Source: Celerinatantimonas sp. MCCC 1A17872 (GTDB lineage: Bacteria; Pseudomonadota; Gammaproteobacteria; Enterobacterales; Celerinatantimonadaceae). From it: DNA of 64,000 nucleotides. The notes beneath the pieces are model-generated. The model did no database searches, had not been told where the DNA came from, and saw nothing but the letters and a program-made list of their open reading frames with translations. Positions 2,338-16,012 of this stretch are shown one piece after another. Numbering within the stretch: position 1 is the stretch's first letter; each line of letters opens with the position of its first letter. The stretch lies in assembly GCF_046054195.1 (NCBI RefSeq), contig NZ_JBEQCS010000008.1:14090-78089 (forward strand), read 5' to 3'. Position numbers and translations under genes: made by a program.

Positions 2338-2553
2338 ACTAAGTTGCCTTGCCTAAATTGTTCATGCCCATCAACGTGTCAGCTTGATCTTAGCTGGCAC
2401 GAAAATGCTCCAAAACGAGTTAACTCGTTGTCTGAGGCGCAGTCAAAAACAGACGTTCTAGTCTAGAAATTTTCGTCCTAACTTCGTGCGCGTTTTCACA
2501 TTCCAATATGAATAAATGTTCTTAAAATCATGTGATTATAAAATCTATGGGTT

Positions 2554-2702
2554 AGATAATAGGTGGAAAAACGCGCATACGCGTTTTTCCAGATGGTATA
2601 TTTAATAGAATGCTGATAAGTTCTTTTTATACAGATAGTTAACTGTGCGCGTTTTTACTGGCCAAACAAGATAAATGCGCATGCGCACTAATAAAATGTT
2701 AT
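2554..2702 (+). repeat. ~150-bp repeat, copy A. It contains two palindromes (AAAACGCGCATACGCGTTTT and AAATGCGCATGCGCACT) and ends in GTTATG.
   Basis: ~93% identical to 12870-13019. Both copies end 16-18 nt upstream of a cassette ORF start. Confidence 0.8.
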
Positions 2703-2718
2703 GCGTACTAGGAAATAA

Positions 2719-3048: not shown

Positions 3049-3053
3049 AACAC

Positions 3054-3125: not shown

Positions 3126-3139
3126 TCGCAAGGTGATTT

Positions 3140-3409: not shown

Positions 3410-3490
3410 CAAGCCGCTCAAATTCGTTCCGGCCACAAAAAGCGTGGCCTCCACCGGACTCGCCAACGCTCGCTGTTTAGCGGGGCATTA
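3406..3490 (+). other. attC site with a degenerate right end
   Basis: ATAACAA overlaps the stop codon. The right end GTTTAGCGGGGCATTAG is imperfect. Confidence 0.4.
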
Positions 3491-3498
3491 GAGGTCTT

Positions 3499-3789: not shown

Positions 3790-3870
3790 CAAAGCGTTGA
3801 AATCAGTCGCTGCGCTCCTTGGAACCTCCAAAAGCTACGCTTTTCCCGGCCCTTTAACACGGCGTTATAT
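3787..3870 (+). other. attC site
   Basis: TAACAAAGCG on the left and GGCGTTATAT on the right. Confidence 0.6.
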
Positions 3871-3882
3871 GTTGGAGAGTTA

Positions 3883-4287
3883 ATGCCACAATTAGAACAA
3901 ATATTGACGGAATGGCTTTCTAATAAATTAAGTGATTCAGAATATTATAAGTATCTTATTGACCATTGTAGTGAATGTGAAAGTAGATTCACACGAGGCA
4001 AGTTTTTACAGCTTAAACATTTTAATCGCGTAGTAGCTCGTGAAATTTTAGATGAGCTCGCACCTTGTGATTTTTGTAACAAGGAATTTACGATAGAGAA
4101 GCTTTTTTCATTACGCGATAATCCGAATTTTGAACTAATTAACAAACCAGATTTTGTTAATATTAGTTTTCCGTATTCAGGTGTAATGGGTCCAGAGCAA
4201 TATGCTCGATGTAAAAAATGTGGAAGTATACTTTTGTTTATCGCACCAGAACGGGAATTTAAAGGTTGGTGGGGTAAGGTGGGGTAA
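3883..4287 (+). CDS. Cassette-borne Cys-rich hypothetical protein (134 aa)
   Basis: ORF with CxxC…CxxC spacing (CSECE…CDFCN…CKKCG) followed by an attC site. Confidence 0.5.
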   Translation: MPQLEQILTEWLSNKLSDSEYYKYLIDHCSECESRFTRGKFLQLKHFNRVVAREILDELAPCDFCNKEFTIEKLFSLRDNPNFELINKPDFVNISFPYSGVMGPEQYARCKKCGSILLFIAPEREFKGWWGKVG

Positions 4288-4385
4288 AACATATAATAAA
4301 TCGCTGCAATTGACAAAATAACTGTCACGAATTTTGGTTCCCAAAATGTAGCGCCAGCTATTTTGCAACTGAGCTCAGCGTTAGG
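4285..4385 (+). other. attC site, family B (shared core …AATAACTGTCACGAATTTTGGTTCCCAAAATGTAGCGCCA…GCTCAGCGTTAG)
   Basis: Near-identical copies at 13452-13545 and 14102-14195. Ends GCGTTAGGG. Confidence 0.65.
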
Positions 4386-4393
4386 GCTCAGAT

Positions 4394-4723
4394 ATGAATC
4401 GAGCATTTGGGAAAGTATTCAAAAGCGAAAATGGCATTGGGTACGGCGTAATCAGAAAAACCAAGGAGCCATTTCCTGAAGTTTTATCGGCTTCGGAGGT
4501 CCTGGCCGAAGACGATTGTGGTAACTATTTGGTTTTACTAAATGATGCCGTTTGCTTCTGGGATCACGAAACAAATGAGATCGAGGTTCTTTCTAATTCA
4601 ATAGATGAATTCGTTTCAAGGTGCTCGACTCCAGAAGAAGTAGAACTAGAGCCAGGCCAAGTTGAATCGGCTTGGATAGACCCCAAGTTTGCGAAGAAAT
4701 TCGGCATCACGAGCAAGTCCTAA
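4394..4723 (+). CDS. Cassette protein, possibly SMI1/KNR4 (SUKH) immunity-like
   Basis: 109 aa with GNYLVLL…VCFWDHETNE, which resembles the SUKH C-terminal motif. Confidence 0.45.
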   Translation: MNRAFGKVFKSENGIGYGVIRKTKEPFPEVLSASEVLAEDDCGNYLVLLNDAVCFWDHETNEIEVLSNSIDEFVSRCSTPEEVELEPGQVESAWIDPKFAKKFGITSKS

Positions 4724-4755
4724 CAAACGCATTAAAGTGGGCGGAGCGTTATAAC
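4721..4755 (+). other. Very short (35 bp) attC-like site
   Basis: TAACAAACGC…GCGTTATAAC with only ~15 bp between the core motifs. Confidence 0.35.
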
Positions 4756-4760
4756 CCAAA

Positions 4761-5276
4761 ATGATCATTGAGCAAGCGCTAGAATTCCTAGGCAAACATC
4801 AGCCTTTGCCATCGGATGAAGAAATATCAGAAGCTGAGATTGATACTTTCAACGAAGTAAGAAAGTTCCTGATTTCAAACCCTGACGAACGTGCAATTCC
4901 TCTTGTACTAAATGCGTTTGGCGATGAAGACGGATTTGGCGTCTACCAGGTTTGTGATGACATATTTAGACCATTTAAACCTGAGGTTGTTTTACCTCAC
5001 TTAAAAAATGAATTGGCAAGTAAACATTACGGGGTTCGCTATTGGGCTGCCCAGTGGGCAATGGAAATCAATTCACTTGATATAGTTCCTGAAATAAACG
5101 CTATGCTAGCAACCCCGGAAGATACGGAGGCTCACTATTATTGTGTTGCCGCGCTCATGGATATATGGCAAAAGACAAAAAATCCGTTTGTGTCTAAGTC
5201 AATAATTGAATTAGGCGGTAAATCCAAGAATACAGATATCTCAGAGCTAATCGATGAACACAAAACACAAAAATAA
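4761..5276 (+). CDS. Cassette-borne hypothetical protein (171 aa)
   Basis: ORF followed by an attC site. Helical-repeat-like sequence. Confidence 0.5.
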   Translation: MIIEQALEFLGKHQPLPSDEEISEAEIDTFNEVRKFLISNPDERAIPLVLNAFGDEDGFGVYQVCDDIFRPFKPEVVLPHLKNELASKHYGVRYWAAQWAMEINSLDIVPEINAMLATPEDTEAHYYCVAALMDIWQKTKNPFVSKSIIELGGKSKNTDISELIDEHKTQK

Positions 5277-5280
5277 GGTT

Positions 5281-5334
5281 ATAACAAAGCAATGTTGCGG
5301 ACTCGCTCTGCTCGCGCGCAAATTGTGGCGTTAG
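5281..5334 (+). other. attC site
   Basis: ATAACAAAGC…GGCGTTAGTTG. Confidence 0.55.
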
Positions 5335-5739
5335 TTGTTAAAAAGTCCGGAGATATTAATGACGTCAAAAGAGGTAGTGATTTCATTTTGGGAAGCGATG
5401 AAATCCAATGATTTTACCAACGCTTGTGAATGGCTTTCCGAAGATTTTGAAGGTTTTTGGCCTCAGAGTTCCGAACTTATTGTTGGACGTAAAAATTTTA
5501 CAGCAATAAACAGTTATTATCCTGCAAACGGAAAATGGTTATTTGACATCAATTCTATAGTTTGTGAGGACAAAACGGTTGTAACGGATATATCAATCAC
5601 TGATGGTGAATTCAAAGCACGAGCAATAACATTTCACACAGTCGAAAATGATTTAATTAAGAAGCAAGTAGAATTTTGGCCAGAAGATTATCCAGCACCG
5701 GAGTGGCGCTCGAAATGGGTCAAAAGGGTAGAAGTGTGA
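5335..5739 (+). CDS. SnoaL/NTF2-like cassette protein
   Basis: The N-terminal pattern SKEVVISFWEAMKSNDF… is typical of the SnoaL_2/NTF2 fold. The ATG at 5359 is an alternative start. Confidence 0.5.
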   Translation: MLKSPEILMTSKEVVISFWEAMKSNDFTNACEWLSEDFEGFWPQSSELIVGRKNFTAINSYYPANGKWLFDINSIVCEDKTVVTDISITDGEFKARAITFHTVENDLIKKQVEFWPEDYPAPEWRSKWVKRVEV

Positions 5740-5747
5740 AATACAAC

Positions 5748-5850
5748 TAACAAAGCAAAACAATGGACGCTTAACGCTTCGGTGCTTGTTGTTTTAGGTT
5801 TTAAATGTGCTGTAACATTGGTGAAAGCGCCACTGTTTGCGGCGTTAAGT
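5748..5850 (+). other. attC site
   Basis: TAACAAAGC…GCGGCGTTAAGT. Confidence 0.55.
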
Positions 5851-5869
5851 TTTTCTTGAGTTGAAGTAG

Positions 5870-6229
5870 ATGAGCGAGCCATTTGATAGATCAATTCCTG
5901 GATACACAGAGCTGACGGATTGGCCTAAGCCACCGCTATATCCTGAAAAGATAACCGAAATATGTCTTTATCGAAATGGAGCGGTTGTTGTCGTAATACA
6001 TGGAGGTTTGAGCTTCAATTTTGAGCCAAGTCTTGGGCGCCTCTGTTATGGTGAGAGTCATAGAGACGAAAATGCTGCCTTTATTAAAAAGGACTCACCA
6101 TTCGAAGCGCAGCTATATGCTTATCTGGAAGCTGCGAGAAAGAAATTGAGTCATGAAGAGTTTTCTGTATCAGATATCAAGCTTTTCAATAATTGTTTTA
6201 GCAAAGCCAAGGTTTATTCTAGTGTGTAA
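5870..6229 (+). CDS. Cassette-borne hypothetical protein (119 aa)
   Basis: ORF between attC sites. Confidence 0.45.
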   Translation: MSEPFDRSIPGYTELTDWPKPPLYPEKITEICLYRNGAVVVVIHGGLSFNFEPSLGRLCYGESHRDENAAFIKKDSPFEAQLYAYLEAARKKLSHEEFSVSDIKLFNNCFSKAKVYSSV

Positions 6230-6328
6230 AAACAGAACAATACAATCAATACCCGCCAGCAAGTTGGCTCGGATCTCTGTTCCGGCGCGTCGCTCCTTCA
6301 CTACGGCCCGTTATTGTAGGCGTTAGCA
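6230..6328 (+). other. attC site
   Basis: Ends GTAGGCGTTAGCA. Confidence 0.45.
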
Positions 6329-6343
6329 GAATAGAAGGAATAT

Positions 6344-6775
6344 TTGATGTCAGTGGAAGAAGTGGTTAGAGGTTTTATTGAACAAGTAAGGTCTGGGAAA
6401 AATCCAGACTTAGTCAGCAAGTATCTAGCCCCAGTAGTTGTAGCGCATCAGATTGTTTCTGGAGTCTCAGAAGCAATTGAAAGAACACCTGAAAACTATC
6501 GTGAACATGTAGAAGAATTTTTAGAAGTTTACGGTCATTTCGAGCTCTCAATCGAAGAGTTTTTGGTTCAAGGTCAAAAGGTTTATGTGCGTTGGCGTCA
6601 AGACGGTCACCATGAAGGTGTAATTTATGGTTACGAGCCGACAGGTCTAGAACTTTCTACAGTAGGAAGCGCTGTGTACCGAGTTAGTGAAAATCAAATA
6701 GTGGAATATTGGATTCAACAAGAGAATCAAGGTTTACGAGAGCAGTTGGAAACCAACCTTAAGAAATTCAGCTAA
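6344..6775 (+). CDS. SnoaL-like ester-cyclase family protein
   Basis: EEVVRGFIEQV…YLAPVVVAHQ matches the ester cyclase/SnoaL N-terminal signature. Confidence 0.6.
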   Translation: MMSVEEVVRGFIEQVRSGKNPDLVSKYLAPVVVAHQIVSGVSEAIERTPENYREHVEEFLEVYGHFELSIEEFLVQGQKVYVRWRQDGHHEGVIYGYEPTGLELSTVGSAVYRVSENQIVEYWIQQENQGLREQLETNLKKFS

Positions 6776-6840
6776 CAAACGAGTATGTGTAGAGGCTTTT
6801 GTGTAGCGTCGTTACTCGCACAGTTAATTAGGTGTTAGCT
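6773..6840 (+). other. attC site
   Basis: TAACAAACG…GGTGTTAGCT. The internal TGTGTAGCGTCGTTACTCGCACAGTTAAT stretch recurs at 7799-7830. Confidence 0.55.
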
Positions 6841-6856
6841 TGCTCCCTTTGTGTAA

Positions 6857-7351
6857 TTAGCTCAAGCTGGCCCGAACATCTGCAATCGTGATAAATAACT
6901 TGTTTTCAGCATGTTGAAATGCAGTGAAGCCGTATTTCTCGTAAAAGTGCAATGCGCCATCTTTTGCGTCAACGATAACGACTGGAAAGGCTACAGTGTC
7001 ACTAGCTGTTAATAATTTACGAAGGGCATCAATGAGTAACCATTCGCCGAATCCTTGGCCTTTGTAGCGTTCATCAACGGCTAAACGGGCAATAAGTCCG
7101 CCAGACGTTGATGAATGGTGTTTTTTTTGAAGTTTGCTCGGTAAAGCTTTTAGATCAATTGGTGTCATGGTTAAGGTATAAAACCCAATAACTTTCGAGT
7201 TATCGGTTTCATCTTCCAGAACAAAGGTTCTGGTATTATCTTTTTTAGCTTGTTGACTGGCCATAACTTTCAGATAGTTATTGAGCGCGTTGATACCACA
7301 GTTGAATCGGTTTCTATCATGTTTAGCCTTGTCGAGAAGTACCGTATTCAT
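6857..7351 (-). CDS. GNAT-family acetyltransferase toxin (TacT/KacT-like), in an inverted cassette
   Basis: 164 aa with a GNAT fold (…FYEKYGFTAF…). Overlaps the upstream DUF1778 antitoxin gene by 4 bp. Confidence 0.7.
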   Translation of the reverse strand: MNTVLLDKAKHDRNRFNCGINALNNYLKVMASQQAKKDNTRTFVLEDETDNSKVIGFYTLTMTPIDLKALPSKLQKKHHSSTSGGLIARLAVDERYKGQGFGEWLLIDALRKLLTASDTVAFPVVIVDAKDGALHFYEKYGFTAFQHAENKLFITIADVRASLS

Positions 7352-7623
7352 TGTTGAGTTTTTCCTTCGTAGCGCTGGGCTGCCACTTTCAGTTTTGTAT
7401 TCGCTTTTGCTGGTTGGTCGAGAGCATCCATCAGTAACATAGCGTCAATTCTGCTTAGTTTGAGGGTTTCTTCACGCTCGATAACCTGTTTAGCTTTTTC
7501 AATGGCAGCGTTCAGTACAAAAGAATTAATGCTAGACATACCGGTAATGGCAGCGGCTGTAGTCAGTAAATCTTGTGTATCAACATCTACTCTGGCAGTG
7601 ATACGGGGTAATGTAGAGGCCAT
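7348..7623 (-). CDS. DUF1778 (RHH) antitoxin partnered with the GNAT toxin
   Basis: 91 aa preceding the GNAT gene. This is the typical type II TA arrangement seen in superintegron cassettes. Confidence 0.7.
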   Translation of the reverse strand: MASTLPRITARVDVDTQDLLTTAAAITGMSSINSFVLNAAIEKAKQVIEREETLKLSRIDAMLLMDALDQPAKANTKLKVAAQRYEGKTQQ

Positions 7624-7734
7624 AGTTTTCTCCTTTGTGTCAAAGTGTCACACAAAACATTATGGTATTAAAGTCAAAATTAATCAATAAAAGTGTCACT
7701 TTGGCACATAAATAACAAGTTGTTAAACCGTAAT

Positions 7735-7839
7735 TTGTAACGCGCGGTATTCTTGGTTTGCAGGTAATTTGGTTTTTATAAAGCTGTGTAGCAGCTTCTG
7801 TGTAGCGTCGTTACTCGCACAGTTAATTTGGCGTTATGC
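7735..7839 (+). other. attC site closing the inverted TA cassette
   Basis: Ends TTGGCGTTATGC and shares internal sequence with attC 6773-6840. Confidence 0.45.
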
Positions 7840-8541
7840 ATAAAAAAGAATAACCAAAATGATTAATGGTATTTTGAAAATTTCAGAAAGCATTTATATC
7901 TTGCTTAAATTCAGAACGAGAATTAAAACTGCCTAGTGATATTTTAAAATAATTAATTATTTATAATTAGTACTTTGCTTACGTAAATAAATTCGTTGCT
8001 CTCACTTGAGCATTATGGGCAATCAATCAGTGTATTAGCTGATTGTTTTTTATTGATAACAACAATATTAGCAGGATATTTAGCCTGTTACTTCATGCCG
8101 TGAAACTATAATGATTCGCCATTTCTCTAATCTAATTCTGAGGGTTAACTCAATATTTATTTCGTGTTGGAAGCATCTAATAGTGGCTATGACAGTAAGC
8201 ATGAAATACCTGTTGCCACAGCTTTGAAATGAAACTCTAAGCTATACGTAACCTGCCTGTTCGAAGAGGAAAAAAGTGGACAATCAGGAGTTTTAATTAG
8301 ATTTATATTGATAGATTTGTCTGTATTTAAAGGTTGGCTAAAAAAGAATATAAGTAAAAAACTGCTGAAGATGTTTTTTTCTAGGAATTAGTTATGAACT
8401 GGGCAAATAAAGTCTGAATTAAAATTATAAAAGAAAGTATTTCATATAATTGTCTGCATCTGTATATTACACTAATTAGTAGCCAGTCTTGTCATTGTAA
8501 TATATTATCGAGCTGATTTTTCGTAATGGACTATAACTGAG

Positions 8542-9789
8542 TTGTATATGGATGACGTTTTATCTTCTTGCCTAAATGCTGAAGGAATGTCAGCACAATG
8601 CGTTTATGACAAAATTAATCAAGAGCTAGAAACCGATGGTGATCGGTATAAGGATCTTGGTAGTTTTACTGCTGTACAAATGAATCCTCAAGCCCGTCAG
8701 TTGGTGATGGATAATATGGGTATCAACCTCATCAACCAAAACGAGTTTCCGCAAACAACTAAAATTCACCAGATCTTAGTAACCACATTAGCCACGCTAC
8801 TGCATGCGCCAGATCAACAGCAAGTGACGGGATGTTCGACATCTGGATCGTCTGAAGCTTGTGCGATTGCCATGGTGGCCCATAAAGGTCGCTGGAAAGA
8901 ACGTGCGGCATTGACGGATAGACCCAATATCGTTTTAGGTTCGAATGCGCATTTATGCTGGCGAAAATTTGCCACTTATTTCGATATTGAAGTTCGGGAA
9001 GTGGTATTTAAAGATTTTAATCAGTATCCACTCGAAGATATGTTATCCCTGGTGGACCAAAACACTATCTGTGTTGTTGCCGTTATGGGATCAACCTATA
9101 CAGGGTTCTGTGAACCGATCAAGGCTATTAATGATGGACTAACTGAGCTTAATCAGCGTCATGGCTGGAATGTTGGTATTCATGTCGATGCTGCTACTGG
9201 CGGCTTTATCCGTCCGTTTATAGATGACTCATCTTTACCTGACTGGGATTTTACTTTACCGCTGGTCCAGTCTATTAATTTGTCCGGGCATAAATATGGT
9301 TTGGTTTATCCCGGTATAGGCTGGTTAATATTGCGGGACGAGACCATTTTGCCCGACAAAATGAATATGACCGCCAGTTATTTAACTGGGGAGACTCAGT
9401 CTTTTGCTATTACTTTTTCTCGTTCATCCGCTTTAGTTATTGCCCAATATTTTAATTTTCTCTTTTATGGCATCGCAGGTTATAAGGCTGTGATAGCAAA
9501 TTGTCTAAAACATGCCAAACAACTAACGTCAGTGTTGAATAAATTAGATGGCATTAAAGTGATTAGCGAACAGACATTGCCAATAGTTGCTTTTTTACTA
9601 GAAGATGATACCGGTGAGTTGTCAGAGACATTTACCGCGCAACTTAAACAAAAAGGTTGGTTGATTCCCTGCTATATGATGCCAAGCAATATTAAACAGA
9701 AAGTAATGCGAATTGTCATTCGGGAAGATATGACAAATGCCCGTCTGGACGAATTAATTCAGGATATTTGTGAGGTACATGCCAGATGA
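8542..9789 (+). CDS. Group II PLP-dependent decarboxylase, glutamate decarboxylase (GadB)-like
   Basis: The NLSGHKYGLVYPGIGWLILRD block parallels GadB [21 protein letters not shown], and the C-terminal half aligns colinearly with GadB. Preceded by 700 bp of AT-rich non-coding DNA. Confidence 0.75.
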   Translation: MYMDDVLSSCLNAEGMSAQCVYDKINQELETDGDRYKDLGSFTAVQMNPQARQLVMDNMGINLINQNEFPQTTKIHQILVTTLATLLHAPDQQQVTGCSTSGSSEACAIAMVAHKGRWKERAALTDRPNIVLGSNAHLCWRKFATYFDIEVREVVFKDFNQYPLEDMLSLVDQNTICVVAVMGSTYTGFCEPIKAINDGLTELNQRHGWNVGIHVDAATGGFIRPFIDDSSLPDWDFTLPLVQSINLSGHKYGLVYPGIGWLILRDETILPDKMNMTASYLTGETQSFAITFSRSSALVIAQYFNFLFYGIAGYKAVIANCLKHAKQLTSVLNKLDGIKVISEQTLPIVAFLLEDDTGELSETFTAQLKQKGWLIPCYMMPSNIKQKVMRIVIREDMTNARLDELIQDICEVHAR

Positions 9790-9838
9790 ATGTTGTTTTG
9801 TGTTTGACCAAAGGATTGGGAATTGGGGCATATTGGAT

Positions 9839-11224
9839 ATGAAGAGTAACAAAAAAACAAATATGGGAATATTTCGTCCCCACCCAAAAATCGAAGCTAT
9901 ATTGTTGTCTTGCGTAATTGTATCACTGGTCGGATGTTTGTCTTTTCTTATCTATAGTAAGTCCAGTTCGGTATTAAAAAATGAAATTAAATTAGGTTTA
10001 TTGTCTAATGTTTCAGCTGCGGCAACAACGATTAACGGGGATTTGCACCGAACATTTAATAAAAATACTTCGCGGCAAGATCCTAATTATCTCGCCGTGG
10101 CAAACTCATTAGAGAAAATCAGGGAAGCCTCTCATAATGTTCGTTATATCTATACGAATATTTTAAAAGGGGGCAAGGTCTATTTTGTGGTAAATCCTAG
10201 TCCACAAAATGATAACGATGGCGATGGTGTACCCGATTTAGCTCCCGCGCTGATGGAACAGTATGAGAACCCTGCTCCGGAATTAGTTCAAGCCCTAAAA
10301 GACCATAAAAGTGTAGTGACCAGTCCATATCAGGATAGTTGGGGCCGATTTATCAGTGGTTATGCTCCTTTTTATGATTCTCAGGGGCGTTTTGTTGGCG
10401 TGCTGGGGATGGATTTGCAACTAAATGACTTTGATCAGCGGATGCACCCTATCACACTGATTTTTGAGAAAACCGCTATTATTGTCTTTTTTGTTGGCTT
10501 GATTGTTGGCCTACTGACTTGGTTTTCAAGACGTTATACGGGCTCTATTCTTTTAGATAATCAAAAACTTACCAGTAATCAAACCCACTTTGAACAGTAT
10601 TTACAATCAGAAACGGGGCATTACCGTCAAGTCATAGAGGCAATTGGGCAAAAAGTGAAGTCAATGCCTTTAACAGAGACAACTCAGGTTCAAGATATCG
10701 AGCAATGGATATCAGCCTGGAATAACTATTTTCAATCTAGCCAAAGCAAGATATTCAGTGAGGACAATTTTCATCTGGATAGTATGCTCAACCATATTGC
10801 ACTAGCAACGAGTGATGTCGTTGCGCTTGATATCAATCAAGAACCCTCGGTCCCCAATTATTTTTACGGCAGTTCTGCGCAATATGAGACGCTATTAAGC
10901 GAATTAGTGAAGGCTCTGCATATTCTTCATGTTGACCGGGAAGTGATGCAACTATTTGTCAGACTAGAAAATGAGCTGGTGGAGGAAGTCAGTTTAGCTA
11001 TCTCTGTCTGTGTAGCAAAAGATGGGGTATCGAGCTGTCAGGCACCTGTCTTTACGCCCGATTTTTCTTTTGCTGAGACTTATAGTGTCCAGCAGATCCA
11101 GTTTTTCAGTACTGTTGCCAGGATAGAAGAATTGGGAGCAAGTATTGATTGGATTGATGACAAGACACAACAAGGATATCAGCTGACCTTTTCTGTCAGT
11201 AAATACAGGGAAGTCGAGCAATGA
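9839..11224 (+). CDS. Membrane sensor with a periplasmic Cache-like domain and an uncharacterised cytoplasmic domain
   Basis: Two TM segments flank a domain carrying the dCache-like motif GYAPFYDSQGRFVGVLGMDL. The ~230-aa C-terminal region has no HAMP, MCP, kinase or GGDEF motif. Start is uncertain; the ORF opens at 9770. Confidence 0.6.
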   Translation: MKSNKKTNMGIFRPHPKIEAILLSCVIVSLVGCLSFLIYSKSSSVLKNEIKLGLLSNVSAAATTINGDLHRTFNKNTSRQDPNYLAVANSLEKIREASHNVRYIYTNILKGGKVYFVVNPSPQNDNDGDGVPDLAPALMEQYENPAPELVQALKDHKSVVTSPYQDSWGRFISGYAPFYDSQGRFVGVLGMDLQLNDFDQRMHPITLIFEKTAIIVFFVGLIVGLLTWFSRRYTGSILLDNQKLTSNQTHFEQYLQSETGHYRQVIEAIGQKVKSMPLTETTQVQDIEQWISAWNNYFQSSQSKIFSEDNFHLDSMLNHIALATSDVVALDINQEPSVPNYFYGSSAQYETLLSELVKALHILHVDREVMQLFVRLENELVEEVSLAISVCVAKDGVSSCQAPVFTPDFSFAETYSVQQIQFFSTVARIEELGASIDWIDDKTQQGYQLTFSVSKYREVEQ

Positions 11225-12360
11225 GGAAGATAGCCCCTTTTATTTTGGTACTAGCCGCATTTGGGATACAACTTTCTTCGGGGATCAACTACATCACTTT
11301 CCCGTTGATTCTGCAATCGCAAGGGGTGAACAATTCCATGATTGGTTTGATTATGTCCTGTGACATTTTCGCCCTGATCGTGTTTTCACAGCGAATTTCT
11401 GTGGTTGTAAAAAAGTTGGGAGTACTGAATTCCATCATTATTTGTTCGGTTGTTCGAAGTGTGGTGGTCTATTTCTTATCTGCAAATCATATGGTTATCG
11501 GCTGGGTTTTAGGAATGTTTGCTTATGGCCTGATGACCAATGCATTATTGGTGATAGTGCAAACCTGGCTAAATCTGATGTCTGCAGGAAAAATCAAAGG
11601 GCTGATCATGGGCCTGTTTTCATCTTGTTTATCTCTGGGCATTGCGATGGCACCTATTGCAATACGGTTTATCGATATGACCAGTCAACAACCATTTTAC
11701 CTGAGTAGTGTGATATCGCTTCTGGTGTTAGTGGTGATGATCTCGGTTATCTCGACACGTCCCAGTTTTCATTCAGACAAAAAGGCTCGGATCGTATTTG
11801 TATTCAAACATTCAAAAATTATCATGTTATCGGCAGTGGTTGGTGGGTTCTGTTTTTTTGGATTACCGTCGTTTTTAACGATTTACGGGATAAAAAATGG
11901 TTTATCACCAGAAAATGCTGCGCTGTTACTGACCATGTTTATGTTGGGTAGTGTCACACTTGGTTTGTTGGTCAGTACATTGTCCGCGTTTATTAATCAT
12001 TATCAGCTTATTTTTGTTTGTGTATGTTTATCTGTTGTATGTGCATCTTTTCTTTCTTTATCAATTTACGCCAATCTGGGTGTGGCTTTGGGATTGCTCT
12101 ATCTGTGGGGCGGTTGTATGGGAGGAATATATGCGCTTGGACTTAATGTGGTGGGTGAGCAGTTTCGCCGTGAAGATCAAATGTCAGCCAACATGACTTA
12201 CACCATGATGGATGCTATCGGTGGTGTGATTGGTTTGTGTATTATTGGCACCAGTATGGATTGGGTGGGTAGTGAAGGGCTTTCTTATACCATTGTTGTG
12301 GCATCCATGCTTTATCTGATTTTTGTTTTCCGCCAACTAGCTCAGCGATTTACTTATTAA
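11221..12360 (+). CDS. MFS transporter
   Basis: 379 aa with ~12 hydrophobic segments. Overlaps the sensor gene by 4 bp. Confidence 0.75.
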   Translation: MRKIAPFILVLAAFGIQLSSGINYITFPLILQSQGVNNSMIGLIMSCDIFALIVFSQRISVVVKKLGVLNSIIICSVVRSVVVYFLSANHMVIGWVLGMFAYGLMTNALLVIVQTWLNLMSAGKIKGLIMGLFSSCLSLGIAMAPIAIRFIDMTSQQPFYLSSVISLLVLVVMISVISTRPSFHSDKKARIVFVFKHSKIIMLSAVVGGFCFFGLPSFLTIYGIKNGLSPENAALLLTMFMLGSVTLGLLVSTLSAFINHYQLIFVCVCLSVVCASFLSLSIYANLGVALGLLYLWGGCMGGIYALGLNVVGEQFRREDQMSANMTYTMMDAIGGVIGLCIIGTSMDWVGSEGLSYTIVVASMLYLIFVFRQLAQRFTY

Positions 12361-12485
12361 GTCTGCAACGGTTAAAGAGCACTGCGTTTCAATATCGGTT
12401 TGTTGCAATTGGTGATAACTGTTTTAATAAAGCTTGAGTTTTTAATTAAAATTGTGACGGATTGAATAAACAAATTTAAATAAAA

Positions 12486-12513
12486 AAGCGAACCACATGG
12501 TTCGCTTTTTTAT
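12486..12513 (+). terminator. Rho-independent terminator of the decarboxylase-sensor-MFS operon
   Basis: AGCGAACC-ACAT-GGTTCGCT followed by TTTTTTAT. Confidence 0.65.
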
Positions 12514-12869
12514 TTCGCTTGTCTCAATTTTATTTTTTGGCAAAAAAGTTAACTATTGTATAACATCTTTCGTTTGCATTGTTTCACAGTGATATTTATG
12601 GTGAAAGTGAATGAATACCTTAATCCAATATAGGTAGGTTTTTTCTGTTCTAATGCTGTAACCACGCATACGCATTTCTTCCTGAAGACCTTTCAGAAAT
12701 GGGCTTTTTAGACTCATAATAACTCCTTACCTCATGATGCTGTATATATGCACAGTGTTATTTGAGATTCTCGGATATCAAGGGAAACAGTGAAAAATTT
12801 TTGCGCGTTTATACATGAACAAATTCATATTATTTATGTTTATTAACAAGTTATGTGTTTTCGATTTGA

Positions 12870-13019
12870 GATAATAGGTTCGGAAAACGCGCATGCGCGT
12901 TTTCCCAGATAGTATATTTAATAGAATGCTGATAAGTTCTTTTTATACAGATAGTTAACTGTGCGCGTTTTTACTGGTCCAACAAGATAAATGCGCATGC
13001 ACACTAATAAAATGTTATG
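12870..13019 (+). repeat. ~150-bp palindrome-bearing repeat, copy B
   Basis: See copy A at 2554-2702. Ends GTTATG 16 nt before the GTG start of the next ORF. Confidence 0.8.
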
Positions 13020-13035
13020 TTTCAGGAGAGTTTAA

Positions 13036-13455
13036 GTGACTCAACAAAAACCAGAAGATTTTGTGAGTGAATATAAAGATATAGATTTTGGGAAACTGAA
13101 GTTGTATCGGGTCGAAGGCGCAAATATAACTCCGCCTACGCCATCTAAAAATGTAATTTCAACTGCTCTTTACAGAGGTTATATAGCTGAATACAAACTA
13201 ACTAAAGATGGGACACTTATCCTTTTGAGTTATAGTTATCCTACAAGCCGTAAAGAGTATAAAACGGATGCTGTAAATGAGATAGTGCATGGCGATTTTT
13301 CATTGGAGTTTAGAGAATCATTCTTTGGTACAAAAACCATTGTACCATTTCATAATGGCAAAATAGTTATTGATAAAAGCCAGTGGCGCATTATAGAAAA
13401 GTCTGGTTTAAACCCAGTTGAAATGATATTAAATAAATCAGAGAAAAAAACATAA
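13036..13455 (+). CDS. Cassette-borne hypothetical protein (139 aa, GTG start)
   Basis: AGGAGAG RBS 6 nt upstream of the GTG. Followed by a family-B attC. Confidence 0.5.
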   Translation: MTQQKPEDFVSEYKDIDFGKLKLYRVEGANITPPTPSKNVISTALYRGYIAEYKLTKDGTLILLSYSYPTSRKEYKTDAVNEIVHGDFSLEFRESFFGTKTIVPFHNGKIVIDKSQWRIIEKSGLNPVEMILNKSEKKT

Positions 13456-13545
13456 CAAATCGCTTCAATTGATAAAATAACTGTTACGAATTTTGCTTCG
13501 CAAAATATAGTGCCAGCTATTTTGCAACTGAGCTCAGCGTTAGAA
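13452..13545 (+). other. attC site (family B)
   Basis: ATAACAAATCGCTTCAATTGATAAAATAACTGTTACG…GCGTTAGAAG. Confidence 0.65.
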
Positions 13546-13564
13546 GCAATAGATCAAAGTTAAT

Positions 13565-14104
13565 ATGAACTGGCTTGAATTTAAAAAAATATCAGAAAGA
13601 GAATTTAAATATATAGAGCTTGAAGGTGGACTTTTCGGATACCAGATGCAGCCTGGAACAAAGTGGAATAAAGGGTTATCTGATGATCAAATTAGAAAGC
13701 TAGAAGACAAATTTGGCTTTAAATTATCAAATGATTATCGAGATTTTATTAAAGTGATGAATGGAATTGATACTGAGCTTATATCAATTGATCCGTTTGA
13801 ATTAGAAGATGATTCATATTCTCAGCTGTACTATGAATACCCGAAAGATTGCGAACGGATATCAGCGTTACTTGAAGAAATTGATAAATTTAAAGAATGT
13901 ATAGATGAAGTGTTAACTGATGCGGGGTTTAGCGTTAGTGACATCGAGGGATATGTTCCAACTTATGCGCATAGGTCTCTCGTTGTCTTCAAGGACAAGT
14001 CGCTATCACCTGTGATTTCAGTTTGGGGTAGCGATGTCGTTGTGTTGGCGGAAAACTTAGAAGAATATTGGATTAAAGAATTGGGATTAGAATATTGTTT
14101 CTAA
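13565..14104 (+). CDS. SMI1/KNR4 (SUKH-1) family immunity-like protein
   Basis: LSDDQIRKLEDKFGFKLSNDYRDFIKVMNG is the classic SUKH N-terminal motif. Confidence 0.65.
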   Translation: MNWLEFKKISEREFKYIELEGGLFGYQMQPGTKWNKGLSDDQIRKLEDKFGFKLSNDYRDFIKVMNGIDTELISIDPFELEDDSYSQLYYEYPKDCERISALLEEIDKFKECIDEVLTDAGFSVSDIEGYVPTYAHRSLVVFKDKSLSPVISVWGSDVVVLAENLEEYWIKELGLEYCF

Positions 14105-14195
14105 CAAATCGCAGCAATTGACAAAAATACATGTCACGAATTTTGGTTCCCAAAATGTAGCGCCATATATTTTTGCAACGATGCTCAGCGTTATA
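14102..14195 (+). other. attC site (family B)
   Basis: TAACAAATCGCAGCAATTGACAAAAATACATGTCACG…GCGTTATAC. Confidence 0.65.
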
Positions 14196-14210
14196 CTACT
14201 TAGGTAGGCT

Positions 14211-14610
14211 ATGGGATCACAAATAAAAATCTATCACTTATTTGTACATGAAAAATCGGGCAAATATTTTTTGCTTGAAGAGGTCCGTCGTAGTTTCTCG
14301 AACGTAAATGAATCAGATTATGTTCGAGTTTGCGATGAGGTTGAAAATAAAGTTGCAAATTTTGTTTCTACTGAACACCTGATACGAGTTGGAATAATGG
14401 AATATTTGCCATTGGGCGAGTATTATATTCAGCAAAAAATGGAGATATTCTTGATATTTATTATTGCGTTAATTTGCTGGATGATCGGTACATTATTTTA
14501 GGAACAGGAAATAGCGAAAAATTGTTTCTAGAAGAAGCTCTAGAGGAGTATCCAGATGAGGTTGATGCAAAACATATTCACAAGATTTCAGTAGAATATG
14601 TGAAAAAGTG
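14211..14610 (+). pseudogene. Cassette ORF disrupted by a frameshift at an A6 tract (14433-14438)
   Basis: Frame 0 ends in a short hydrophobic tail (IFLIFIIALICWMIGTLF). The +1 frame continues with a protein-like sequence (GDILDIYYCVNLLDDRYIILGTGNSEK…VEYVKK) to a TGA at 14608. One extra A in the run restores a 133-aa ORF. Confidence 0.4.
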
Positions 14611-14618
14611 AGCATTCT

Positions 14619-15083
14619 ATGACTCTTGATCTTGAAAAATTAATTCTTCTCTATGATGAAAATTTCATGGAGCTTAGTGTTAAAGGAGTGTTCAAAGAGT
14701 TCCTGGGTATCCCATTTGGAATAAATTTGAATAGTTGTAAAATTAGTTCATGTAAGTGTTTCACAGATTTTTTGCTTCCAACAATAAAATTCTCTAGATT
14801 TGATGAGTGGTTTGTGGATGAAAAAGCAGAGGAAGTTGAATACATCAAAAAGGCCTTATTATTCAACGCGCCTATATCTCTTGATAAAGACTCGATTCGT
14901 CTAGAAATAGAGAGTGTAAATCGATACTTGGAAGAAAATAAAATAGAACAAATTATCGAAATTGAAGGTTTTAATGAGTCACTTGAATATGGATATAAGT
15001 TCAATTTCAATTGGAACCACTGGTCAATGGTGGGAGTAAGTCAGAACTATTATTTGGCGTATCATTGGTATACAACAGAATAA
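14619..15083 (+). CDS. Cassette-borne hypothetical protein (154 aa). It shares a cassette with the preceding frameshifted ORF.
   Basis: Starts 8 nt after the upstream stop with no intervening attC. Confidence 0.45.
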   Translation: MTLDLEKLILLYDENFMELSVKGVFKEFLGIPFGINLNSCKISSCKCFTDFLLPTIKFSRFDEWFVDEKAEEVEYIKKALLFNAPISLDKDSIRLEIESVNRYLEENKIEQIIEIEGFNESLEYGYKFNFNWNHWSMVGVSQNYYLAYHWYTTE

Positions 15084-15193
15084 AATATACGAGGCCATTA
15101 AAGTGACGGCTTTCCCGTCAGTTGTTCTGTGGCTTTAGCTACATCGATACAAAACAATCAACTCTAAAGCTGCGTGTTATAACGGCGTTAGGG
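15084..15193 (+). other. attC site
   Basis: Ends GCGTGTTATAACGGCGTTAGGGC. Confidence 0.5.
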
Positions 15194-15208
15194 CTACATG
15201 GGTAAGGT

Positions 15209-15886
15209 ATGGATTTAGAAGCAGGTTTTTGGGTTAGAGATTTCGAGGTTGATCAAGTAGATTCGCAAATCATCCCGAAGGTAGGTGAACAGCGCATAGT
15301 TTATATTTCGCTAGACTCTGAACCGGAAAAAGGAAAAAAATATTACGTTTTATGGTTTCCTCCCTATTCAGCAATTAATGGCTGGGATGATAATCCCAAT
15401 GAAATTAAGAGAACGCATGTCGTTGAATGCACATTAACCTACCTTGAAAGCTTCCCATTTACAGATGAACAAATTAATAGTTTCGTTGACAAGTGGATTA
15501 TTGCTAAAGACAAAAGTAAGTATCAAGCAAATATCTTGAGTGTTACTCCATTTTTAGAATTCTGTGAAAATTACGAGGGGCATGATTATTTCTCCTTTCA
15601 GCGATGTGGTTATCCTGATGGGAGCACAAAAATGATATGGGAACTGTCTCGTGAATACCAAAAAGCTAAATTTGGTAGCAACCTTATATACATAACTGGT
15701 TGTGTTCCTGAGCAATTTTTCAGTGCTGTGATTGATGTCAGTGATAGCACAAAGTGTCGCGTTAAGTTTCATGAGCATTATGATCCCGGCATAGAACAAT
15801 GCTTAGTTATTAACTATGAGCTAAAAGGAGATGAACTAAAGTTTTTTAAAGAGGCAATAGAAAATGCTATTGAGCTTAAGCCTTAG
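15209..15886 (+). CDS. Cassette-borne hypothetical protein (225 aa)
   Basis: ORF followed by an attC site. Confidence 0.5.
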   Translation: MDLEAGFWVRDFEVDQVDSQIIPKVGEQRIVYISLDSEPEKGKKYYVLWFPPYSAINGWDDNPNEIKRTHVVECTLTYLESFPFTDEQINSFVDKWIIAKDKSKYQANILSVTPFLEFCENYEGHDYFSFQRCGYPDGSTKMIWELSREYQKAKFGSNLIYITGCVPEQFFSAVIDVSDSTKCRVKFHEHYDPGIEQCLVINYELKGDELKFFKEAIENAIELKP

Positions 15887-15889
15887 AAA

Positions 15890-16012
15890 CATCCCTAATA
15901 AGAGTTTCTCGTAAATACCTACCGCGATGCGGCCGAGGTTTTGTGGTTTCGCAGCGCTCATATTAATACCCAAGTCGCTCGTGCTTGTTCGCTGGTGAGG
16001 CAGGCGTTATAA
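15890..16012 (+). other. Last attC site of the array
   Basis: Ends CAGGCGTTATAAC. No further attC-like ends lie downstream. Confidence 0.5.

What the first reader, a model, noticed from the sequence alone, without database searches (positions are those of the whole stretch)
12870..13019. Duplicated 150-bp palindrome-bearing module placed just upstream of two cassette ORFs
Two ~93%-identical copies (2554-2702 and 12870-13019) each end in GTTATG 16-18 nt before an ORF start. Each carries two near-perfect palindromes built on GCGCATGCGC (AAAACGCGCATGCGCGTTTT and AAATGCGCATGCGCACT) plus AT-rich sequence resembling -10 elements.

They are longer than the other attC sites and have a different interior. 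The palindromes look like operator sites for a dimeric regulator. One copy sits at the gcvP-proximal start of the array. The other resumes the array after the large three-gene insert.

They could be an unusual attC class, attI-like relics, or a mobile promoter/operator unit supplying expression to otherwise promoterless cassettes.
Basis: seen in the sequence. Interest (0 to 1): 0.55.

Follow-up and report, generated by a model that had tools for sequence, protein, structure and literature searches.

The report
Integron attI sites, one orphaned
The duplicated 150-base module is the cassette-insertion site (attI region) of a Shewanella/class-2-type integron, present twice in the window: once beside a truncated integrase gene and once with no integrase gene at all.

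Summary
There are two copies, at 2552-2698 and 12866-13014, about 94% identical and unrelated outside these limits.

They are not attC sites. Their bottom strands do not fold end to end, and they have no R'' partner.

They are the cassette-proximal half of an integron attI region:
- Copy B lies 150 nt from a LexA box and the first 81 codons of a truncated integron-integrase gene.
- In nine related genomic loci the same module lies next to an intI reading frame of about 320 codons, frameshifted in two.
- It aligns along its whole length with the attI2 region of Tn7 class 2 integrons and ends in the attI2 core AATAAAATG|TTRRRY.
- In 80 relatives the conserved sequence stops at the same G|TT and continues into 78 different sequences.

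Copy A belongs to an integrase-less "orphan" form of the platform. Orphans make up 55 of the 69 assessable relatives, mostly Shewanella, with several per genome.

The two palindromes are a conserved signature of this attI lineage. Two GCATGC cores lie about 104 nt apart, and the distal one is always 13 nt before the crossover. What binds them is unknown.

Promoter activity is inferred only by homology to Pc2A/Pc2B.

The parts
2404..2424 (+). Left edge of the copy A platform: a degenerate 'attX' hairpin remnant, AATGCTCCAAAACGAG|TTAAC.
   Evidence: In the alignment with 13 class I orphan platforms, homology begins here and everything to the left is unrelated. The hairpin motif CTAAC..TTTTGCCCCAAA..G|TTAAC marks this edge in classes I and V; in classes III and IV it lies further upstream of the module (-225 to -545). 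It also lies about 95 nt beyond the intI stop in L049 and L067.
2425..2551 (+). intI-proximal half of orphan platform A. It has no intI, and an internal deletion of about 63 nt has removed the LexA box. It contains a TGCGCGTTT/CRP-like site, CGTGCGCGTTTTCACA (2485-2500), and the -10-like hexamer TAAAAT at 2523-2528 and 2539-2544.
   Evidence: Alignment with class I orphans; motif enrichment; coordinates. The CRP and promoter readings are inferences by analogy with V. cholerae (PMC3948777).
2552..2698 (+). Module copy A, the cassette-proximal half of the attI region. Features: P1 2565-2590 (core GCATAC 2575-2580); AT-rich centre holding the Pc2B-equivalent (TTAATA 2602-2607, 17 nt, TTTTAT 2625-2630); TGTGCGCGTTTTTACT 2644-2659; P2 2673-2688 (core GCATGC 2679-2684); L-box-like CACTAAT 2686-2692; crossover G at 2698.
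2698..2704 (+). R box GTTATGC of copy A. The inferred crossover lies between 2698 and 2699.
   Evidence: Family conservation ends exactly here. It matches the attI2 core AATAAAATGTTRRRY (PMC12901181).
2699..7833 (+). Cassette array A, about 10 cassettes with canonical attC sites (R'' YTAACAAAGC ... R' GCGTTAK). It includes an inverted TacA/GNAT toxin-antitoxin cassette at 6857-7623. The last crossover is at 7833|7834.
   Evidence: Sequence reading, Pfam, attC folds.
12484..12717 (-). Truncated integron-integrase gene (delta-intI): codons 1-81, with a stop after codon 54.
   Evidence: tblastn against the IntI of L067 gives 65% identity over aa 1-81. NCBIfam TIGR02249 'integron integrase' gives E 1.7e-10 on the 54-aa ORF. 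Translation.
12740..12755 (.). LexA box CTGTATATATGCACAG over the intI promoter.
   Evidence: It fits CTG-N10-CAG with an AT-rich centre, and the same position is conserved across the family. A match to CTG-N10-CAG is found upstream of intI in 43 of 60 metagenome loci. SOS control of intI is documented in PMC3108266.
12800..12815 (+). Upstream TGCGCGTTT motif, TTTGCGCGTTTATACA, between the intI promoter and the module.
   Evidence: A copy at the same relative place occurs in several metagenome clades.
12866..13014 (+). Module copy B. Features: P1 12882-12905 (core 12891-12896); TGTGCGCGTTTTTACT 12960-12975; P2 12989-13004 (core 12995-13000); L-box-like CACTAAT 13002-13008; crossover G at 13014.
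13014..13020 (+). R box GTTATGT of copy B. The inferred crossover lies between 13014 and 13015.
13015..16006 (+). Cassette array B, with four canonical attC sites. The last crossover is at 16006|16007.
   Evidence: Sequence reading, repeats D2/D3, folds.

Best explanation
**What it is.** Each copy is the cassette-proximal half of the attI region of a chromosomal integron of the Shewanella/class 2 lineage. The attI region is the double-stranded DNA site where the integron integrase IntI inserts incoming cassettes.

**How it most likely works.**
- IntI binds a simple site at the 3' end, made of the L-box-like CACTAAT, 5 nt, and the R box GTTATGY.
- It exchanges one strand with the folded bottom strand of a cassette's attC.
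- The cassette is joined between the G and the TT (2698|2699 and 13014|13015).
- Its ORF then starts 15-16 nt after the hexamer GTTATG (20 and 21 nt after the junction).

**Expression (inferred).** By homology with Tn7's attI2 region, the same stretch and the about 100 nt upstream of it should carry the outward cassette promoters.

**The palindromes.** The two GCATGC-centred palindromes are conserved parts of this attI type. P2 lies at a fixed 13 nt from the crossover and P1 about 104 nt further upstream. They are probably binding sites for a protein that assembles or regulates the site. That protein could be IntI itself or a widely conserved host factor.

**The two copies differ in state.**
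- Copy B still has the SOS (LexA) box and the first 81 codons of intI. The rest of the gene is gone.
- Copy A is an integrase-less 'orphan' platform of a type that is multi-copy in Shewanella genomes.
- Neither copy can supply integrase. Both arrays could be serviced only by an IntI made elsewhere, or they are now frozen.

**Shown versus inferred.**
- Shown: homology, position relative to intI, the junction behaviour, and the conservation of the motifs.
- Inferred: IntI binding, promoter activity, what the palindromes bind, and activity in trans.
For: **1. Linkage to intI.**
- A motif scan of one genome per species returned 89 stretches, about 84 of them true relatives.
- Nine relatives have a divergent intI reading frame of about 320 codons starting about 170 nt upstream of P1. 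It is frameshifted in two of the nine.
- The L067 protein scores 398 bits on TIGR02249 'integron integrase' against a cut-off of 265.
- The window's copy B has the N-terminal remnant of that gene.

**2. Homology to a known attI.**
- IntI of L067 is 62% identical to IntI2.
- The Tn7 intI2-to-cassette region aligns with the window platforms through TGAGATAAT, P1, the AT-rich centre and P2.
- It ends ACTAATAAAATG|TT, as both modules do.
- AATAAAATGTTRRRY is the published minimal attI2 core (PMC12901181).

**3. Junction behaviour.**
- Column conservation collapses immediately after ATGTTA.
- Among 80 junctions, 78 have distinct downstream sequences and 73 begin TTA.
- In the 8 loci read, 6 of them orphan platforms, the downstream genes are followed by canonical attC sites.

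**4. An independent, IntI-based sample.**
- Of 58 distinct intI-upstream regions from metagenomes (IntI 48-93% identical), 24 carry two exact GCATGC hexamers 101-127 nt apart. Only 3 of 11,600 shuffles do.
- In all 24 the distal hexamer is followed by exactly 13 nt and then GTT.
- The motif-selected genome set gives the same 13-nt offset in 73 of 81.

**5. Not an attC.**

**6. Promoters in the homologous region.** Pc2A and Pc2B were shown experimentally inside attI2 (PMC5559693). In V. cholerae the cassette promoter Pc also lies between intIA and attI (PMC3948777).
Against: - No recombination, binding or transcription data exist for this sequence.
- Copy A has no intI within the window, and copy B's intI is truncated, so neither site is demonstrably active now.
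- The R boxes GTTATGC and GTTATGT depart from GTTRRRY at one position.
- The consensus promoter scan finds no sigma-70 match in the copy A region and none inside copy B. The same scan also finds none in Tn7's attI2 region, where promoters are proven, so this is weak evidence.
- P1 was part of the search pattern for the genome set, so its invariance there is partly by construction. Only the metagenome set and Tn7 are unbiased for P1.
- 34 of the 58 unbiased intI-upstream regions lack an exact GCATGC pair.
Confidence: 0.85

Rival explanations
1. The module is an unusually long class of attC site, the 3' recombination site of a cassette. It would be recombined as a folded single strand.
For: It ends in GTTATG at the same distance from the next ORF as the array's attC sites. 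It contains inverted repeats.
Against: - There is no RYYYAAC partner at its 5' end.
- The bottom strand gives only local hairpins (P1 alone; P2 with the middle motif), and the terminal ATAAC stays unpaired. Of the eight window attC sites folded the same way, at least five form one long hairpin closing at or near their ends.
- It follows gcvP and a terminator, or an intI remnant, not a cassette ORF.
- Palindrome variants across the clade are not compensatory.
Confidence: 0.02
2. The module, or the whole platform of about 300-450 nt, is a gene-less, promoter-carrying cassette. It would be a portable expression unit that moves on its own and is dropped in front of promoterless cassettes.
For: - Gene-less cassettes with promoter activity exist in Vibrionaceae superintegrons (PMC11014356).
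- Orphan platforms sit at many unrelated loci.
- Their left edge in classes I and V coincides with G|TTAAC of a short hairpin.
- Pieces of attI2 up to 244 nt long are known to act as cassette ends (PMC12901181).
Against: - The 150-nt unit has no recombination site at its own 5' end.
- Every case examined is at the head of an array or next to intI, never between two ordinary cassettes.
- The platform keeps the intI promoter region and LexA box. That points to derivation from a full integron by loss of intI, not to a cassette designed for expression.
Confidence: 0.1
3. It is a miniature transposable element (MITE, or an IS200/IS605-type element bearing palindromes) scattered through the genome.
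For: It is multi-copy and dispersed, with up to 7 copies per Shewanella genome. It has two similar sub-terminal palindromes.
Against: - It has no terminal inverted repeats and no target-site duplications.
- The left boundary differs by class, while the right boundary is always the integron crossover.
- No transposase gene was seen in the ORF maps of the 11 loci examined. The only recurrent neighbour found is intI.
Confidence: 0.02
4. The palindromes act mainly as transcription signals. P1 would be a bidirectional intrinsic terminator or insulator between the integrase side and the cassettes. P1 and P2 together would be operators of a dimeric repressor that controls cassette expression.
For: - The terminator scan flags P1 and P2 on the minus strand of copy A and P2 in L067.
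- P1 has flanking A and T runs.
- By homology, P1 lies between the Pc2A and Pc2B positions and P2 lies downstream of Pc2B (PMC5559693).
Against: - In other clades the P1 stem shrinks to 3-5 bp and loses its A/T runs, while the GCATGC core stays. A hairpin function is therefore not what is conserved.
- P2's fixed 13-nt distance to the crossover fits a role in recombination better than a role in transcription.
- No regulator gene is linked to the module.
Confidence: 0.2

Closest known systems
attI2 region of class 2 integrons (Tn7)
   Same: - The integrase is 62% identical.
- The layout is the same: intI, LexA-type box, about 300 nt, crossover.
- The region is alignable throughout. TGAGATAAT, two GCATGC-centred palindromes 106 nt apart (104 here) and an identical ACTAATAAAATG|TT end are shared.
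- The cassette promoters lie in this region (PMC5559693).
   Different: - Outside the motifs the sequence has diverged: mean column identity of the three-sequence alignment, which includes both window copies, is 70%.
- The Tn7 palindromes are degenerate (CGGCATGCACG, GAGCATGCTT).
- The window has an extra TGTGCGCGTTTTTACT site between P1 and P2.
- Tn7's LexA-like box does not bind LexA (PMC5559693), whereas the copy B box has an AT-rich centre.
- The window copies are chromosomal and lack a working intI.
attI1 of class 1 integrons
   Same: It is a double-stranded site ending in G|TTRRRY. An L box lies 5 nt upstream (CCCTAAA in attI1, CACTAAT here), and further upstream elements are present (PMC12901181, PMC3146285).
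   Different: The accessory elements of attI1 are two direct repeats resembling the core site (GTTACGC, GTTATGG). Here they are GC-rich palindromes unrelated to the core. attI1 is 65 bp long, and its Pc lies inside intI1.
Vibrio cholerae superintegron intIA-attIA region
   Same: It has divergent Pint and Pc between intIA and attI, a LexA box on Pint, and a CRP box between them that serves both promoters (PMC3948777). The window has a CRP-like site, CGTGCGCGTTTTCACA, whose centre lies 41.5 nt before the start site predicted for a TAAAAT hexamer (inference).
   Different: No sequence comparison with this region was made. VchIntIA belongs to another integrase clade (established knowledge, not tested here).
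CALIN / SALIN (attC clusters or single attC sites with no integrase nearby)
   Same: Array A is a cluster of attC sites with no integrase next to it. A 'peculiar amount' of such clusters was reported in Shewanella (PMC9229058).
   Different: Here the cluster is headed by a conserved attI platform from which only intI is missing. The papers read do not mention this.
Delta-attI-type cassettes (PMC12901181)
   Same: Pieces of attI2, from 11 nt to 238 nt upstream of the crossover, occur away from intI and are still recombined.
   Different: Those pieces sit at the 3' end of a resistance cassette inside mobile integrons. Here the whole platform, with the intI promoter region, heads its own array on a chromosome.

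Membership tests
integron attI site (attI2 / Shewanella type) | Lies between a divergently transcribed intI and the first cassette. | tested here: met
   Copy B has the intI remnant 12484-12717(-), 150 nt upstream of the module. Nine relatives have an intI reading frame of about 320 codons at the same distance, frameshifted in two.
integron attI site (attI2 / Shewanella type) | The same criterion applied to copy A. | tested here: not met
   No IntI-like sequence lies within 1,500 nt upstream; gcvP is there instead. Pfam scans of 20 of the larger ORFs in the first 31 kb found no tyrosine recombinase; ORFs beyond that were not scanned. Copy A is homologous to attI but orphaned.
integron attI site (attI2 / Shewanella type) | Conserved sequence ends at G|TTRRRY, and unrelated cassettes begin at TT. 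| tested here: met
   There are 78 distinct downstream sequences among 80 junctions, and 73 begin TTA. Conservation falls to noise after ATGTTA.
integron attI site (attI2 / Shewanella type) | Homology to an experimentally used attI. | tested here: met
   Alignment with the Tn7 attI2 region. The core AATAAAATGTTRRRY is published (PMC12901181).
integron attI site (attI2 / Shewanella type) | Simple site made of inversely oriented L and R integrase-binding boxes. | tested here: inconclusive
   CACTAAT lies 5 nt before GTTATGY and resembles the attI1 L box CCCTAAA in 5 of 7 positions. This stretch varies across the clade. Binding sites have not been defined for attI2 either (PMC12901181).
integron attI site (attI2 / Shewanella type) | Recombined with attC by the cognate IntI. 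| not testable with these tools
   This needs an in vivo recombination assay.
attC site | R'' (RYYYAAC) and R' (GTTRRRY) are inverted core sites, and the bottom strand folds into one imperfect hairpin. | tested here: not met
   DNA-parameter folds show only local hairpins and no pairing of the ends. Of the eight window attC sites folded the same way, at least five form one long hairpin closing at or near their ends.
attC site | Lies at the 3' end of a cassette ORF. | tested here: not met
   Copy A follows gcvP and its terminator. Copy B follows the intI remnant.
cassette promoter Pc (class 2 type, inside attI) | Outward sigma-70 promoter with demonstrated activity. | tested here: inconclusive
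   The consensus scan finds none. It also misses the proven Tn7 promoters. The Pc2B-equivalent is TTAATA-17-TTTTAT at 2602-2630.
SOS-regulated intI promoter | LexA box (CTG-N10-CAG with an AT-rich centre) over the intI promoter. | tested here: met
   Copy B has CTGTATATATGCACAG at 12740-12755. In copy A it has been removed by a deletion of about 63 nt.
MITE / insertion sequence | Terminal inverted repeats, target-site duplication, and a parent element with a transposase. | tested here: not met
   Boundaries are class-specific on the left and lie at the integron crossover on the right. No transposase gene was seen in the 11 loci whose ORFs were mapped.
CALIN (attC cluster lacking an integrase) | Two or more attC sites with no intI nearby. 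| tested here: met
   Array A (2699-7833): at least 9 attC sites were read in the sequence, with no integrase adjacent.

The most novel reading that the evidence does not exclude
The integrase-less platforms could be non-autonomous 'satellite integrons'.

**What they would retain and do.**
- Each keeps a working attI and the cassette promoters, and in most cases the SOS-box region.
- They recruit and exchange cassettes using an IntI made elsewhere in the cell.
- They spread as cassette-like units bounded by the short attX hairpin (…TTTTGCCCCAAA…G|TTAAC) on one side and attI on the other.

**What this would explain.**
- The many CALINs in Shewanella.
- Their appearance on ICEs and IncC plasmids next to resistance cassettes.

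**A linked idea.** The paired GCATGC palindromes would be the so far undefined accessory binding sites of attI2-type sites. They could bind IntI, or a XerC-like or other universal factor. P2's left half, AATGCGCAT, resembles the XerC arm of dif. That resemblance is from memory and was not tested.
Probability: 0.25. Interest if true: 0.75.

Novelty: new member of a known kind. Interest (0 to 1): 0.45.

Why it matters
**Annotation.** attI sites are annotated only for the few clinical integron classes. This gives a recognisable sequence signature for the attI of the whole Shewanella/class 2 lineage: two GCATGC palindromes about 104 nt apart, with the distal one 13 nt before G|TT.

**An open question becomes testable.** The structural elements of attI2 are stated to be still undefined (PMC12901181). 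The comparison made here nominates specific bases to mutate.

**Origin of CALINs.** In this lineage many attC clusters lacking an integrase are not loose fragments. They are headed by a conserved attI platform from which only intI has been lost. That makes the origin and possible in-trans activity of CALINs experimentally approachable.

**Clinical relevance.** The same orphan platform sits directly in front of a dfrA1 cassette in Proteus. It also precedes a fosG-like cassette on IncC plasmids in Enterobacteriaceae. It may therefore matter for how resistance cassettes are expressed and moved outside classical integrons.

Tried and rejected
**Negative or rejected results**
- Rfam at gathering thresholds, on the window and on 18 related loci: nothing at the module or its upstream region. 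The only hits were a tRNA, a group II intron domain and a guanidine-II riboswitch elsewhere.
- Exact-protein look-ups of the two downstream cassette ORFs and of UxuA, to find the source genome: none on record. The organism remains unidentified.
- IS200/IS605-type element or MITE, my first idea after seeing many copies per genome: dropped once the upstream LexA box and intI were seen.
- A long-range P1-P2 stem in single-stranded DNA or RNA: the halves are complementary in the window, but variants in other clades are not compensatory.
- Strict helical phasing of P1 and P2 (DNA looping): distances of 101-107, 110, 113 and 127 nt in the unbiased set do not support a fixed phase.
- An intI remnant inside class I orphans: none found by tblastn at the cut-offs used, E 1e-3 and 1e-5. 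Instead, blastn shows that the block lying just beyond the intI stop in intact integrons is joined to the promoter region in orphans.
- E. coli genomes: the module occurs in only 1 of 5,426, inside an ICE. At the DNA level it is therefore not the Tn7 attI2 itself.

**Not held in the library**
- Drouin et al. 2002, on the S. oneidensis integrase and its attI.

**Left as leads only**
- The CRP reading of GTGCGCGTTTTCAC.
- The IHF-like TATCAAnnnnTTA just 5' of class II modules.

Full report
**1. Observation**

- The two copies are real. Pairwise alignment and the repeat finder give a 136-nt ungapped block, 2568-2703 versus 12884-13019, at 96% identity.
- With the 5' end included, the shared unit runs from TT(A/G)AGATAATAGG (2552 / 12866) to AAAATG (2698 / 13014). 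Unrelated sequence lies on both sides.
- A profile HMM built from 81 relatives finds these two copies and no others in the window (E 3e-44 and 4e-47).
- Both copies end in GTTATG, 15-16 nt before an ORF start (ATG 2719; GTG 13036).
- TGCGCGTTT occurs 10 times in the window against 1.1 expected. Seven of the ten lie in the modules or about 68 nt upstream of them. This was the first sign that the conserved unit is larger than 150 nt.

**2. Context in the window**

- gcvP ends at 2213.
- From 2699 to 7833 there is a run of small ORFs. Each is followed by a classical attC site (R'' YTAACAAAGC ... R' GCGTTAK), read directly. At least five of the eight window attC sites tested fold as one long bottom-strand hairpin.
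- A block follows that is not cassette-like: a PLP-dependent decarboxylase, a membrane protein with a PDC sensor domain, and an MFS transporter, at 8542-12360.
- A second array runs from 13015 to 16006.
- No integrase was found among the 20 larger ORFs of the first 31 kb scanned with Pfam; ORFs beyond that were not scanned.

**3. Relatives**

- One scan of a collection holding one genome per species was run with GCGCATRCGCGTTT-N45-75-TGCGCGTTT. It returned 89 stretches. About 84 are true relatives and 5 are chance hits.
- Most are from Shewanella, with up to seven per genome on different contigs. Others come from Vibrio litoralis, V. plantisponsor, Enterovibrio MAGs and a Proteus hauseri.
- The module is conserved from TAGATAATAGG to AAAATGTTA. 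Column conservation drops to noise immediately after that point.
- Among 80 junctions there are 78 different downstream sequences, and 73 begin TTA.
- In the 8 loci read, 6 of them orphan platforms, the downstream genes are followed by canonical attC sites.
- A fixed end joined to ever-different cassettes at G|TT is the behaviour of an integron recombination site.

**4. What lies upstream**

- Printing 200 nt upstream of every copy showed a conserved architecture that falls into about six sequence classes. It comprises another TGCGCGTTT motif, an SOS box of the CTGTATATATATACAG type, and then the start of a divergent gene.
- In the class to which copy B belongs, that gene is a reading frame of about 320 codons in nine loci, frameshifted in two.
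- The V. plantisponsor protein is an integron integrase by NCBIfam (TIGR02249, 398 bits, cut-off 265).
- In the window the same gene is present only as codons 1-81, at 12717 down to 12484, at 65% identity. It has a stop after codon 54.
- It is preceded by the LexA box CTGTATATATGCACAG at 12740-12755.
- Copy B is therefore the intI-to-first-cassette region of an integron whose integrase gene has been cut off by the three-gene block.

**5. Homology to attI2**

- The integrase is 62% identical to IntI2 of Tn7.
- I fetched a Tn7-type class 2 integron and read the region from the intI2 start to the crossover. It aligns with both window platforms along the whole module:
  - TGAGATAAT;
  - ACGGCATGCACGATTT, which corresponds to P1;
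  - an AT-rich centre;
  - ACGAGCATGCTTACTAATAAAATG|TT, which corresponds to P2 plus the core.
- The two GCATGC centres are 106 nt apart in Tn7 and 104 nt apart in the window.
- A 2026 paper gives AATAAAATGTTRRRY as the minimal attI2 core. It also states that the binding sites of attI2 have not been defined (PMC12901181).
- In class 2 integrons the cassette promoters Pc2A and Pc2B lie inside this region (PMC5559693). By alignment:
  - the Pc2A -10 falls just 5' of the 150-nt module;
  - Pc2B falls between P1 and P2 (window TTAATA-17-TTTTAT, 2602-2630), inside the 66 nt that are identical in the two window copies;
  - the negligible Pc2C falls at the crossover.
- The simple promoter scanner finds nothing in copy A. 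It also finds nothing in the Tn7 region, so its silence is uninformative.

**6. The palindromes**

- P1 was part of my search pattern, so I needed an unbiased sample. I searched metagenome contigs with an alignment of eight integrases.
- I then looked at the 520 nt upstream of intI in the 60 loci that had enough sequence, 58 of them distinct.
- Twenty-four carry two exact GCATGC hexamers 101-127 nt apart. Only 3 of 11,600 shuffles do.
- In all 24 the distal hexamer is followed by exactly 13 nt and then GTT.
- The five regions whose IntI is only 48-50% identical lack the pair.
- The conserved unit is roughly GCATGC-N-CG-N-TTT. It reads rightwards in P1 and leftwards in P2.
- The flanks vary without compensation. 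Examples are GAGCATGCTCG, CGGCATGCACG and TGCGCATGCGCA.
- The A/T runs that make P1 look like a terminator in the window are absent elsewhere.
- What is conserved is therefore a sequence, not a hairpin, which points to protein recognition.
- P1-P2 distances are not phase-locked.
- The L-box-like stretch between P2 and the crossover varies more than P2 itself.
- No gene is consistently linked to the module except intI, and the motif survives in Tn7 in enterobacteria. The binder is therefore either IntI or a factor common to all these hosts. I cannot decide between them.

**7. Not an attC, MITE or terminator**

- With DNA parameters, at least five of the eight window attC sites tested fold as one long hairpin closing at or near their ends.
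- The modules form only local hairpins and leave the terminal ATAAC unpaired.
- There are no terminal inverted repeats, no target duplications and no transposase.

**8. Copy A and the orphans**

- Sixty-nine relatives have at least 1,300 nt of upstream sequence or an IntI hit. Of these, 9 have full intI, 5 have partial intI (some cut by contig ends) and 55 have none.
- The orphans keep the LexA-box region.
- In class VI orphans, the about 240 nt that lie just beyond the intI stop codon in an intact relative (L004) are joined to the promoter region. The whole ORF has been removed cleanly.
- In classes I and V the left edge of homology is the G|TTAAC of a short hairpin, CTAAC..TTTTGCCCCAAA..GTTAAC. 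The same hairpin lies about 95 nt beyond the intI stop in L049 and L067. A half-copy closes several arrays.
- Window copy A is a class I orphan. Homology starts at about 2404, and a deletion of about 63 nt has removed the LexA box.
- Orphans of one class sit beside different housekeeping genes in different species.
- One lies in an ICE in a single E. coli genome.
- Another lies on IncC plasmids, directly in front of a fosG-like cassette.
- The Shewanella integron survey I read reports many CALINs and SALINs but no attI-like head (PMC9229058).

**9. Verdict**

- The finding is a genuine repeat, and its nature is clear. It consists of two attI regions of a Shewanella/class 2-type integron, one with a truncated integrase gene and one orphaned.
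- That places it in a known kind.
- The parts that go beyond current description are the conserved palindrome pair with its fixed offset and the abundance of integrase-less platforms heading arrays.
- Function in trans, the binding partner and promoter activity remain inferences.

Noticed in passing
L005, L008, L013, L016, L021, L029, L055, L069, L070, L085 and others; window 2404-2424: A short hairpin (CTAAC..TTTTGCCCCAAA..G|TTAAC, 'attX') marks the left edge of orphan platforms of classes I and V and lies further upstream in classes III and IV. It also lies about 95 nt beyond the intI stop in intact integrons (L049, L067). A half-copy (…TTTTGTCCCAAAGCGTGCT) closes several arrays (L002, L018, L044, L058, L070). 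It may be a minimal attC-like site.
   Followed up: partly
L016, L021, L085, L055, L070 (300-1,000 nt upstream of the module): ORF-less units of about 290 nt, bounded by attX hairpins, are repeated in tandem upstream of platforms. They share GGCTCGACGGCGGCATCC…CATGCCGCCAACGGTCACAGTTGCAAC.
   Followed up: no
Class I orphan loci, about -250 to -190 from P1 (e.g. L016, L005, L069, L081): A conserved 18-codon ORF (MKIxRxESLxLxAPQTT[S/C]*) reads away from the LexA box where intI would start. Several differences between species look synonymous. In window copy A its start codon is mutated (CAT to CGT at about 2471-2473).
   Followed up: no
L004 -1417..-1179 from P1; L010, L015, L023, L053, L061, L075, L078 -474..-231: A block of about 240 nt lies just beyond the intI stop and is retained in class VI orphans. 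It has a promoter-like TTGACC…TATAAC and a terminator-like end, so it could be a small RNA gene. There is no Rfam hit.
   Followed up: partly
L027, L036, L046, L054 (immediately after the module): The same foreign sequence starts exactly at the crossover (…AAAATG|TTGAACTAAGCCGCTGCGCGGAGC). In L036 and L046 it encodes a 287-aa tyrosine recombinase about 31% identical to IntI. This looks like an element that targets the attI crossover.
   Followed up: partly
L048 (Proteus hauseri) and L090 (E. coli IncC plasmid NZ_AP028311.1, 5001-5567): Resistance cassettes sit directly on an integrase-less platform. In Proteus it is a 157-aa DfrA1-like gene. On IncC plasmids of E. coli, Citrobacter and Enterobacter it is a FosG-family gene, preceded by two tyrosine-recombinase genes interleaved with two hypothetical genes.
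   Followed up: partly
L019 7646-7834: A tandem duplication lies inside the module, with a hybrid P2/P1 junction. It looks as if recombination occurred between the two near-identical palindromes.
   Followed up: no
window 6857-7623 (-): An inverted cassette encodes a GNAT-family toxin (164 aa) and a TacA-type antitoxin (91 aa). It sits between two 90%-identical 52-nt repeats (6786-6837 and 7785-7836); the first is the 3' part of the preceding cassette's attC, the second the 3' part of its own.
   Followed up: partly
window 7837-12483: An AT-rich spacer of 0.7 kb is followed by a three-gene block: PLP-dependent decarboxylase, membrane protein with a PDC sensor domain, and MFS transporter. It ends in a strong bidirectional terminator hairpin (12478-12515) that abuts the truncated intI. 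This block has replaced codons 82-319 of intI.
   Followed up: partly
window 4720-4756 and 14211-15187: There is a very short attC (CCTAACAAACGCATTAAAGTGGGCGGAGCGTTATAAC, about 37 nt). One cassette carries two ORFs (96 and 154 aa) before a single attC.
   Followed up: no
L092 2180-1870 (reverse strand): In this class 2 integron, about 310 nt with no obvious ORF lie between the attI2 crossover and the dfrA1 cassette (…AAAATG|TTCTGTCTCGCC … ATATCG|TTAACC). This may be a gene-less cassette.
   Followed up: no
Class II loci just 5' of the module (L067, L049); window 12836-12852: A match to the IHF consensus WATCAANNNNTTR (TATCAATAGGTTA in L067; TATTAACAAGTTA in the window) lies immediately upstream of the module.
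   Followed up: no
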